DNA of 64,000 nucleotides from Eledone cirrhosa (taxonomy: Eukaryota), in contig OZ024742.1 in the NCBI GenBank assembly GCA_964016885.1, positions 119,412,001 through 119,476,000 on the forward strand, given 5' to 3'. Positions 485 to 38,639 of the stretch are shown here, one piece after another. The notes below the pieces were generated by a model. It saw only the letters and a program-made list of their open reading frames with translations. It ran no database searches and was not told the DNA's origin. Within the stretch, counting starts at the first letter, position 1. Each line of letters begins with the position of its first letter. The position numbers were made by a program, and so were the translations under genes.

Positions 485-718
485 GATTACGAATAAACGA
501 AGTGAATTATAACCTGTTGACTTGTTCTTCAGGTTTATATATATATATATATATATAAAAGAAAATTTTCGCTCTACATGGCTGAATACAATAAATGTAA
601 TCTGAGTTTTTCGAATATTAATAATAACATTCGATTCGTTTGCAATTATGCAAATAAGCCTCAATTTTATAGCCATGTCAGTAGAATGAACCCTTCATTC
701 TTACTCTTGTGTTGGCAT

Positions 719-784
719 GTGAACAGAACTGCAGACACTAATGTTTCTGGGTATCACCTTTCATCAGTACAGCTCACTGTTCAC
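719..784 (-). ncRNA. Type I hammerhead ribozyme motif (left arm of fold-back)
   Basis: Reverse complement of 1066-1131. Confidence 0.75.
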
Positions 785-1065
785 CTGCCAAACTGTCAGA
801 GCTAGTGAAAATATATGCTATTTTCAAAAATACACAGTAACTGATCGGCCTGATTTGCATATTATCAGACTGGCTGATCAGTCAGATCTGCATATTAGCA
901 GATCCACTGATCAACCAGATTTTCATATCAGCAGACTGATCAGTGGATCTGCTAATATGCAGATCTGACTGATCAGCCAGTCTGATAATATGCAAATCAG
1001 GCCGATCAGTTACTGTGTATTTTTGAAAATAGCATATATTTTCACTAGCTCTGACAGTTTGGCAG

Positions 1066-1131
1066 GTGAACAGTGAGCTGTACTGATGAAAGGTGATACC
1101 CAGAAACATTAGTGTCTGCAGTTCTGTTCAC
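1066..1131 (+). ncRNA. Type I hammerhead ribozyme motif, long bulged stem I, GUC site
   Basis: GUGAACA(GU)GAGCUGUA-CUGAUGA-AAGGUGAUACCCA-GAAA-CAUUAGUG-UC|UGCAGUUCUGUUCAC; 15-bp stem I with a 2-nt bulge; predicted cleavage after 1116. Confidence 0.8.
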
Positions 1132-1237
1132 ATCCAACACAAGAGCAAGAATGAAGGGTTCATTCTACTGATATGGCTATAAAATTGAGGCTTGTTTGCA
1201 TAATTGCAAACGAATCGAATGTTATTATTAATATTCG

Positions 1238-1420
1238 GTGGTGGATTGGCAGTATCGGTAGAGGGTCGGACGCCATGCTTTCCAGTGTAGTTACGTCCCT
1301 TTACGATCTGAGTTCAAATCCCGCCGAGGTTGACTTTGCCTTTCATCCTTACGGGGTCGATAAAATAAAGTACCAGTAATGCACTGGGTAATTGCTGGCC
1401 TTGAGCCTAAAGTAGAAACA
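1238..1420 (+). mobile_element. tRNA-derived SINE
   Basis: A box TGGCAGTATCGG, B box GAGTTCAAATCC, core GCCTTTCATCC..GGGGTCGATAAAATAAAGTACC; 14-bp TSD ATTATTAATATTCG at 1224-1237 and 1421-1434. Confidence 0.9.
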
Positions 1421-1699
1421 ATTATTAATATTCGAAAAACTCAGATTACATTTATTGTGTTCAGCCATGTAGAGCGAAATTTTCTTTTTTATTTGAATTT
1501 GGCAAAGCCGGCCATTTATCGCTCGTATACAGGAAACTAACTGGCCAGTCTGCTGTTATGCAAATCCGGCTGATCAGTGGATCTGCTAATATGCAGATGT
1601 GACTGATTAGCCAGTCTGATAATATGCAAATCAGGCCGATCAGTCATTATGTATCTTTGAAAATAGCATATATTTTCACTAGCTCTGACAGTTTGGCAG

Positions 1700-1765
1700 G
1701 TGAATAGTGAACTGTTCTGATGAAGGGTGATACCCAGAAACATTAGTGTCTGCAGTTCTGTTCAC
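1700..1765 (+). ncRNA. Type I hammerhead ribozyme motif (third copy)
   Basis: CUGAUGA-A-GGGU-GAU-ACCC-A-GAAA-CAUUAGUG-UC|; stem I changes are mostly wobble-compatible; predicted cleavage after 1750. Confidence 0.8.
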
Positions 1766-2426
1766 ATGCCAACACAAGAGCAAGAATGAAGAGTTCATTC
1801 TACTGACATGGTTATAAAATTGAGGCTTGTTTGCATAATTGCATAATTGCATAATTGCAAACGAATAGAATGTTATTAATTGAAACCGTGGCATGAACAC
1901 AGATTACCGACGACCTAAAACACCCAGCACATATGTAGAAATAGAAACCTTCCTAGTCAATGAAAGAGCCTCTATGTCGCTCGAATTGTTAGAAATAGTA
2001 GTCAAATCTCTTTTATACAACCGTAAAAAGTTCACTTTTAATGATTTAATCCTAAATACTATTGTCTGAAACAAGTAGGTGATGGCTACAAGGTTTTTAA
2101 TCAAAGACCTGCTCAATTGGGTTGACCTAGGCTAAACGAAAATCACTTGAATTATTTCAATGCACACATCATGCCTATATGTATGCAACAATGATCGTCG
2201 ATTGTCCTCACCTGTAATTAAATAGATCTAGAGAATCAAACCATACGACTACACTCGACCTCAGACACTTCTACCATACAACATAAGGATGTGCTAGACC
2301 GCCCATGTTCTGCCAACTATATCGCTATCTCCCGTTAAACAAGTTACCGACCCCCACCTATCACTTGTATAGGGATGGCGGGCGTTATCAAGCTTCAGTC
2401 TTCATATTACGTAGTTTCTGTATAAT

Positions 2427-2612
2427 AATTGTTTCTACTTTAGGCACAAGGCCAGCAATTACCCAGTGCATTACTGGTACTTTATTTTATCGACCCCGTA
2501 AGGATGAAAGGCAAAGTCAATCTCGGCGGGATTTGAACTCAGATCGTAAAGGGACGTAACTATGCTGGAAAGCATGGCGTCCGACCCTCTACCGATACTG
2601 CCAATCCACCGA
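2427..2612 (-). mobile_element. tRNA-derived SINE (same family)
   Basis: Near-identical reverse complement of 1238-1420; flanked by TTTCTGTATAATAAT repeats. Confidence 0.9.
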
Positions 2613-37419: not shown

Positions 37420-38115
37420 GCAAAATAAATGGTCAGTGAACGGGCCGGAGTGAGCTAATCTGCATGTCTGGTCCCTCGTTGCCGATAGCTCAGCGGATTG
37501 TCATGGTTATATTTTCACTGAAGTGCGGTGGTTTCTGTAAGCAGGTATTGGAGGAGGTCCTATGTTTTTGGTGTTTCGAGCTCCTTATATGACTCAAGGT
37601 GGTTGTTGGGTATCCAGTGACTTTAAGTACTTCCAGGAAACGAGATGTGTGTGTGGCTTGGTCCTCCGCCTTGCTGCATTTGTTTCGGATACGTTTGAGT
37701 TCATTCCTCACGTATCCAATTTTAGCCCAAGTATCAGGGCCAATTTATAATGTACAAACAAGTCTCTACAGGTAGCTTTCCTGTAAAAGTTGGTGTAGAT
37801 GACACTCTCCTCCGTTACCCTCAGTTGGAAGTCAAATAGGGGCAGGGATCCAGTGCGATCAAGGTGTTCTACATTGAAATGTATATTACCGTCCGCGTTC
37901 GCGAATGTCCTGGGTATTTTGTCGGCCTATTCACTGGAGGATAAGAATATCGTCTATGTACCTTGTGAAGAAGGTACACGTGTAATAGTTATTGAGCGTA
38001 CGACAATCCAGTTGGTTCGTGTACGTGATGAGTTCTGAGAGGTTGGGTCCCTACTTGTCTGTTTGTAGATTTGTTGATGGAAGGTGAAGGTGTTGTCCAC
38101 GATGATGGATAAAAA
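37420..38115 (-). mobile_element. Degenerate Penelope-like RT fragment (different family)
   Basis: Minus-strand RYIDDI and FYRKATCRDLFVHY motifs. Confidence 0.65.
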
Positions 38116-38639
38116 TCACTGTATGTCGGATGCAAAAAGTTTGAAGAAGTATATGTAGCGAGAAATGATGCAGTCAGCTGACAGCTGGGTGGGCGGGTAC
38201 TGATGTGAAAAGGGAGACAACATCGAAGCTAAATATTTATGAATTATGTCTAAGTTGTTCTGGCGGTAGTTGTCGGAGTCTGTATATAACCTCATCAGAA
38301 CTGCTGTCATGTCCAGGAAAAGTAGAAAATATAGGATTGAGGACAGTGGCGTATTGCTGGGAGTATCTAAGGTTACAGCTGCAGCTCCCAAATAAATTAA
38401 AAAAATAGTGTATACTTTGCTCGTTTATTTTAATTACACAAAACATAATAAAATATGTACAATACAATAATTGTTTCTACTATTGGCACAAGGCCAGCAA
38501 TTACCTAGTGCATTACTGGTACTTTATTTTATCAACCCCGTAAGGATGAAAGGCAAAGTTAACCTCGGCGGGATTTGAACTCAGATCGTAAAGGGACGTA
38601 ACTATGCTGGAAAGCATGGCGTCCGACCCTCTACCGATG

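What the first reader, a model, noticed from the sequence alone, without database searches (positions are those of the whole stretch)
556..1880. Tandem GUC hammerheads 634 nt apart plus an antisense copy: retrozyme-like unit
Seen: two same-strand hammerheads (predicted cuts after 1116 and 1750) with a 15-bp bulged stem I and a canonical GUC. A third copy on the minus strand (719-784) makes a ~930-bp fold-back. The spacing is 634 nt, or 437 nt once the 197-nt SINE + TSD is removed. The element is non-coding and has ~33-bp subrepeats. Stem II is closed by an atypical A.A. Established: tandem hammerhead repeats (retrozymes) self-process into monomers that can circularise. Inference: a transcript could release a unit-length RNA, and the fold-back could form long dsRNA that masks the ribozyme or feeds small-RNA pathways.
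Basis: partly seen in the sequence, partly recalled or inferred. Interest (0 to 1): 0.72.

Follow-up and report, generated by a model that had tools for sequence, protein, structure and literature searches.

The report
Penelope-copied hammerhead repeat, cut-site footprint
This is one damaged copy of a small non-coding repeat present thousands of times in this animal genome, and its copies often begin right at the predicted self-cutting site of the RNA, which likely records that the RNA cut itself before a Penelope-type jumping gene copied it into DNA.

Summary
In detail: three type I hammerhead cores, a 437-bp non-coding unit, a 197-bp SINE insert and a fold-back. The locus is one insertion of a dispersed family (2,803 exact hits of a 3' 21-mer). 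Copies carry Penelope-like-element (PLE) marks: two fixed 3' ends about 37 bp apart, one long plus one short in 29 of 32 inverted pairs, (TA)n targets and 5' truncation. So the fold-back is an insertion by-product. No locus has more than two same-strand cores. The most useful result: copy 5' ends pile up at the hammerhead cut (34 seen, 6.6 expected, positions 0..+8; weaker in the second sample) and fall to background just upstream. Arms that cross a second hammerhead mostly stop within 100 nt, which favours linear templates over a rolling circle. All three local hammerheads carry a lesion next to the core, so the proposed 634-nt RNA from this locus is doubtful. No RNA data and no coding partner were found. 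The scan noted sibling two-armed families on other DNA of this genome. Verdict: new member of the PLE-mobilised retrozyme-like class, with likely fossil evidence of self-cleavage in vivo.

The parts
553..936 (-). Inverted arm, about one unit, ending at the 'long' 3' end next to (TA)n
553..589 (-). About 37-bp PLE-type tail (between the short and long 3' ends; approximate)
536..556 (.). (TA)n target microsatellite
   Evidence: 94 of 104 family ends abut a dinucleotide run
719..784 (-). Type I hammerhead 3, core starts at 767, predicted cut after 734; G10.1 changed to A
914..936 (.). Fold-back junction inside the self-complementary 33-bp subrepeats
932..1010 (+). 33-bp subrepeats (also 840-939 and 1549-1646), strong hairpin (z -4.8)
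937..1237 (+). Plus arm, upstream unit, first part
1066..1131 (+). Type I hammerhead 1, core starts at 1083, predicted cut after 1116; A at 1091 breaks the 10.1-11.1 pair
1238..1423 (+). SINE inserted at a recurrent site of the unit; target duplication 1224-1237 / 1421-1434
1424..1569 (+). Plus arm, rest of the upstream unit, holding internal copies of both 3'-end sites (about 1455 and 1492)
1570..1880 (+). Plus arm, downstream unit; stops about 30 bp before the usual short end; 8-bp duplication at 1831-1859
1700..1765 (+). Type I hammerhead 2, core starts at 1717, predicted cut after 1750; U.U at the first stem I pair

Best explanation
The locus is one two-armed insertion of a dispersed 437-bp non-coding hammerhead repeat that is likely copied into (TA)n by the reverse transcriptase and endonuclease of a Penelope-like element, likely from linear RNAs of one to two units that are often already self-cut. 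Steps. Shown: fixed paired 3' ends, (TA)n targets, variable 5' ends, inverted arms, at most two cores per arm. Inferred from PAc biochemistry (PMC11167929): the PLE enzyme nicks both target strands and starts copying at two internal RNA sites about 142 and 179 nt downstream of the cut, giving one short and one long end. Inferred: copying runs to the RNA's 5' end, often the hammerhead cut, and the two cDNAs join head to head by microhomology. Inferred: cleavage needs a second hammerhead or protein help, because the monomer is predicted to prefer an inactive fold. Inferred: this copy is decayed, and the SINE came after insertion.
For: 3' ends: 56 short, 45 long, 3 intermediate of 104 in 81 loci; 29 of 32 inverted pairs are long+short; 94 of 104 abut dinucleotide runs. 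The older subfamily uses the same two ends (15 short, 10 long). 5' ends at 0..+8 from the cut: sample 1, 23 seen vs 3.3 expected; sample 2, 11 vs 3.3 (P 6e-4); positions -7..-1 pooled, 5 vs 4.4. The best single change-point in sample 1 is at -2 to 0. Other TGCA words show no such pile. At the upstream cut of longer arms, 7 of 24 end at 0..+8 and 0 of 17 at -9..-1. Beyond a second core 13 of 14 unselected arms and 20 of 26 dimer-set arms stop by -100, against 38 of 131 and 31 of 124 beyond a first core (P about 1e-6 to 4e-6). Stem I has 5 of 21 pairs with two-sided changes across 33 distinct copies of two subfamilies. Units and arms of one insertion share variants: 82% and 81% vs 60% in random pairs. 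GIY-YIG/RT PLEs are abundant in the genome.
Against: No RNA evidence and no cleavage assay. No coding partner in the 50 GIY-YIG loci examined, out of 10,597 first-look candidates. The 0..+8 window was chosen after seeing sample 1. In sample 2 the direct contrast with -9..-1 was 12 of 93 vs 4 of 81, Fisher P 0.11. Ends are also enriched at +7..+26 (40 vs 17.4), where stem I and a near-palindrome could stall or fold back the cDNA, and a second hot spot lies at -170..-162 in the subrepeats (11 of 71). Arms of one locus are not independent. 120 of 263 arms cross the core intact, so cutting is not required. The double-hammerhead fold (-52.0 kcal/mol) only equals two inactive monomers (-52.8). Covariation among related copies is inflated by shared descent.
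Confidence: 0.62

Rival explanations
1. Classical non-LTR retrozyme cycle: dimers are transcribed, cut twice, ligated to a 437-nt circle, and a PLE enzyme copies the circle for more than one turn; linear monomers explain the pile at the cut.
For: Unit size and type I hammerhead match the class (PMC7229834 parts 2-4). 35 exact-core dimers. Tandem units in one insertion share variants. Nearly half of arms read through an intact cut site.
Against: A circle has no 5' end, yet arms stop sharply within 100 nt upstream of a second core and also pile at the second cut. No trimers (weak on its own).
Confidence: 0.2
2. PLE-mobilised element whose hammerhead is not cut during transposition; the pile of 5' ends comes from the enzyme stalling or folding back in the 21-bp stem I.
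For: In PAc, hammerhead mutants insert normally in vitro and no RNA-seq reads ended at the cut (PMC11167929). Excess ends at +14/15 and +23, and a hot spot in another hairpin. Monomer predicted inactive, by 6.5 kcal/mol.
Against: The highest 9-nt window starts exactly at position 0 and the rate drops to background at -1. A stall would be expected at the entry of the helix, not its last pairs (inference). Core and stems are kept across subfamilies.
Confidence: 0.15
3. The copies are only truncated ends of a coding PLE not yet found; the fold-back is a regulated dsRNA switch.
For: A read-through transcript of 556-1880 is predicted to pair core 1083 with the minus arm. The partner search was far from complete.
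Against: In dimers the sequence upstream of one unit is another unit, not an ORF. No PLE protein hit lay directly upstream of an arm in a shared position among 270 family loci and 30 sister loci. Junction points differ from locus to locus. No A-to-G hyper-edited arms.
Confidence: 0.03

Closest known systems
Metazoan non-LTR retrozymes (Cervera and de la Pena 2020, PMC7229834, parts 2-4 of 6 read; Li, Clavereau and Pollet 2026, 10.64898/2026.07.22.740005, part 1 of 5 and passages read)
   Same: Non-coding unit in the 150-450 bp range, type I hammerhead, low GC, head-to-tail dimers, proposed PLE link. A mismatch at the base of helix II is described for axolotl HHR_Amex2, which cuts best as a dimer.
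   Different: Dispersed and two-armed, at most two cores per arm, PLE tail at the ends. Arm lengths argue against a circular template. Long (21-bp) stem I; loop 1-loop 2 tertiary contact not assessed.
Insertion units of EN+ Penelope-like elements (Craig et al. 2021, 10.1101/2021.04.23.441226, passages read; Cervera and de la Pena 2014, PMC4209133, parts 1-2 of 4 read)
   Same: 5' truncation, partial tandems, inverted 5' copy, 30-40 bp tail at one end, microsatellite targets, extra nucleotide between A9 and G10.1, self-complementary helix III.
   Different: No RT/GIY-YIG ORF; the whole element is 437 bp; an added extra A before G12; 3-bp helix III rather than a minimal one.
PAc Poseidon of Anolis (Frangieh et al. 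2024, PMC11167929, parts 1-2 of 4 read)
   Same: Two internal start sites downstream of the hammerhead define the tail; AT-rich targets; both strands extended.
   Different: There the hammerhead was dispensable in vitro and no RNA ends mapped to the cut; here genomic 5' ends pile at the cut.

Membership tests
Type I hammerhead ribozyme | CUGANGA and GAAA boxes, NUH cut triplet, three helices with helix I open | tested here: met
   95 of 133 unselected whole cores intact; no Rfam hit
Type I hammerhead ribozyme | G10.1-C11.1 and 1.1-2.1 pairs next to the core | tested here: inconclusive
   Met in the family (broken in 4 and 6 of 133); each of the three window copies breaks one of them
Type I hammerhead ribozyme | Self-cleavage at the GUC | not testable with these tools
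   Indirect only: pile of 5' ends
Non-LTR retrozyme | Non-coding 150-450 bp unit with a type I hammerhead | tested here: met
   437 bp; sense frames at most 67 aa
Non-LTR retrozyme | [quoted passage not shown] 2026) | tested here: met
   35 exact-core dimers
Non-LTR retrozyme | Multimeric tandem arrays | tested here: inconclusive
   0 trimers, but only about one expected; the 2026 preprint says most families have few units
Non-LTR retrozyme | Expressed as linear and circular unit-length RNA | not testable with these tools
   No RNA run available; arm lengths lean against a circular template
Penelope-like element (autonomous) | ORF with RT and GIY-YIG endonuclease | tested here: not met
PLE-mobilised insertion | 30-40 bp tail at one end only | tested here: met
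   Ends at unit positions B28-29 and B65; 29 of 32 pairs long+short
PLE-mobilised insertion | 5' truncation, partial tandem, inverted 5' copy, microsatellite target | tested here: met
PLE-mobilised insertion | An identified coding partner with matching ends | tested here: inconclusive
   None in 50 loci examined

The most novel reading that the evidence does not exclude
Thousands of genomic copies form a fossil record showing that a PLE-type hammerhead cuts in vivo during transposition, and that this 'retrozyme' spreads from linear one-to-two-unit transcripts, not from a rolling circle; the cut sets the 5' end of a large share of inserts, and transcription starts just upstream of the hammerhead.
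Probability: 0.4. Interest if true: 0.7.

Novelty: new member of a known kind. Interest (0 to 1): 0.5.

Why it matters
What hammerheads do in the PLE cycle is open: the papers read call it unclear (Craig 2021), dispensable in vitro with no RNA ends at the cut (Frangieh 2024), or propose circles as templates without showing it (Cervera 2014, 2020). A non-coding family with PLE ends lets both questions be read from DNA alone, by counting where copies start. If the pile at the cut is real cleavage, it is in vivo evidence; the wall beyond the second hammerhead tests the rolling-circle model. It also gives a short 437-nt substrate for PLE enzyme assays. The locus itself is a decayed copy and likely has no function.

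Tried and rejected
Rfam scan: no hammerhead family, only hairpin miRNA look-alikes below gathering score. Sequencing runs: no RNA holder listed; laying contigs of unknown kind showed presence only and was not used as evidence on expression. Coding partner: blastn of the unit against 50 GIY-YIG loci gave only bystander copies (L074, L103) and a weak 27-nt match in L106 that I rejected on reading the region; tblastn of 28 ORFs against 270 family loci and 30 sister loci gave unrelated neighbours. The sister pattern (301 hits) is an older non-coding subfamily, not the partner. ADAR scars: A>G 229 vs T>C 179 over 206 arms, P 0.07, top arms 10/2, 8/1, 6/0; no hyper-editing. TGCA microhomology alone does not explain the pile. 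Variant sharing between tandem units cannot tell circle from linear dimer. Rows dropped before counts: loci that repeat the same place or recent segmental duplicates (lists in the scripts), 3 SINE-broken arms, and, from the lists, places already held, tRNA-array copies, duplicates and one place not fetched. Paper searches listed no paper on this family or on genomic 5' ends at a PLE hammerhead cut; most subscription papers are not searched and no supplements were read, so Fig. S2 of PMC11167929 and family lists in supplements may bear on novelty.

Full report
Observation. The three cores, the spacing, the SINE and the fold-back are in the sequence as described. Each hammerhead is type I: a 15-bp stem I with a 2-nt bulge, extended by 6 bp; stem II GGGU/ACCC; stem III of 3 bp whose strand is self-complementary with G.U pairs. 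Rfam does not score it. An extra nucleotide after A9 is a described trait of PLE hammerheads (PMC4209133, parts 1-2 read), and other hammerheads near GIY-YIG genes in this genome show U.U there. Copies 1083 and 767 have A in place of G10.1, and copy 1717 has U.U at the first stem I pair; these lesions occur in 4 and 6 of 133 unselected whole cores.

Family. G000 is a 3.0-Gb animal genome; earlier notes call it cephalopod, which I did not test. A 21-mer near the 3' end has 2,803 exact hits and the core 2,240, with 0 for reversed controls. Mean divergence from the majority is 3.8%. An older subfamily, mostly 77-93% alike, has 301 exact hits, the same non-coding unit and the same ends. Across 33 distinct copies of both, 95% of cells pair, 5 of 21 stem I pairs and 1 of 8 pairs of a downstream hairpin change on both sides, and slid controls pair 32-45%; shared descent inflates this.

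Insertion anatomy. In 81 loci the 3' ends fall at two places about 37 bp apart (56 short, 45 long, 3 between); 94 of 104 abut a dinucleotide run, mostly (TA)n; and 29 of 32 inverted pairs have one long and one short end. 95 of 169 unselected loci are two-armed. This is the PLE signature: partial tandems, inverted 5' copy, a 30-40 bp tail at one end, microsatellite bias (Craig 2021, passages read). PAc biochemistry traces the tail to two internal start sites downstream of the hammerhead (PMC11167929, parts 1-2 read). So the antisense copy is an ordinary product of insertion. In the window the junction lies in the self-complementary 33-bp subrepeats. The inner arms differ at 3 of 289 sites against about 6% for typical pairs, which suggests later arm-to-arm conversion (inference). 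The plus arm lacks its short end. There are 35 exact-core dimers and no trimer.

Where copies begin. I mapped arm 5' ends in two samples chosen only by a 3' word: 134 and 129 arms after removing duplicates. Relative to the cut, positions 0..+8 hold 23 ends (3.3 expected) and 11 (3.3 expected, P 6e-4); positions -7..-1 hold 5 pooled (4.4 expected). The best change-point in sample 1 is -2 to 0. The pile is seen in arms flagged as inverted (26 of 108) and not so flagged (9 of 65), and other TGCA words lack it. It recurs at the upstream cut of longer arms: 7 of 24 against 0 of 17. Against this: the window was set after sample 1; the direct contrast in sample 2 gave P 0.11; ends are also enriched at +7..+26 and at -170..-162, where hairpins could stall or fold back the copy; and 120 of 263 arms cross the core intact. 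I read the pile as run-off from self-cut RNA, at roughly two to one against stalling.

Linear or circular. Beyond a first core, 38 of 131 arms end within 100 nt; beyond a second core, 13 of 14 unselected arms and 20 of 26 dimer-set arms do. A circle offers no such wall. It fits linear RNAs that start a short way upstream of a hammerhead and span at most two units, though a length limit of the enzyme is not excluded. Units and arms of one insertion share variants more than random pairs, which fits either model.

Activity. The monomer is predicted to prefer a fold in which the core pairs with loop 3, 6.5 kcal/mol below the hammerhead fold; the double hammerhead roughly equals two inactive monomers. 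Dimer-dependent cutting is reported for axolotl retrozymes (PMC7229834) and protein-assisted cutting for PAc (PMC11167929). No RNA data were available. A read-through RNA of 556-1880 would bury core 1083 in the fold-back but not core 1717; nothing shows that it is made.

Partner. RT/GIY-YIG elements are abundant, but none of the 50 loci examined shares this unit's ends or hammerhead.

Verdict. It works like a non-autonomous PLE passenger and meets the sequence criteria for a non-LTR retrozyme; circular expression is untested and it is not a coding PLE. The class is known, and the 2026 preprint argues for the PLE origin (part 1 and passages read). What adds value is the family-wide record of 5' ends at the cut and the wall that argues against a rolling circle. 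Earlier notes of this scan describe sibling families on other DNA; two of them favour circles, which my counts for this family do not.

Noticed in passing
window 1224-1434; family loci L144-L323: The SINE sits at the same site of the unit in 40 of 169 unselected loci, with varied 5' junctions, in both subfamilies and often in one arm only: a strong recurrent insertion hot spot.
   Followed up: partly
window 431, 4845, 8382, 18389, 28908 (+); 7292, 8234, 31072, 41596 (-): Further hammerhead-like motifs of other families, several with a TATATA-type helix III; 8234/8382 form an inverted pair. Such motifs are common in this genome.
   Followed up: partly
L093, L097, L098, L101, L107, L111; window 7292 and 31072: Hammerheads near GIY-YIG genes carry U.U at the base of stem II, so a mismatch there recurs across PLE families of this genome.
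   Followed up: no
L061-L062 (G000:C3:17.74-17.76 Mb): Dimer copies of the element are amplified inside a roughly 2-kb tandem array of tRNA-Thr(AGT) genes.
   Followed up: partly
window 37442-38368 (-): Decayed PLE ORF fragment, 41% identical to the L104 protein.
   Followed up: no
window 2423-2610 (-): A second SINE copy, 98% identical and inverted relative to the one at 1240-1427.
   Followed up: no
L094, L095, L096: Long open frames of 938, 844 and 1096 aa with RT matches beside GIY-YIG hits: candidate intact PLEs.
   Followed up: partly
window 1046-1064 and equivalents: Several arms that cross a second core stop 51-71 nt upstream of the cut, at the 5' base of the extended stem I; possibly a transcription start.
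   Followed up: partly
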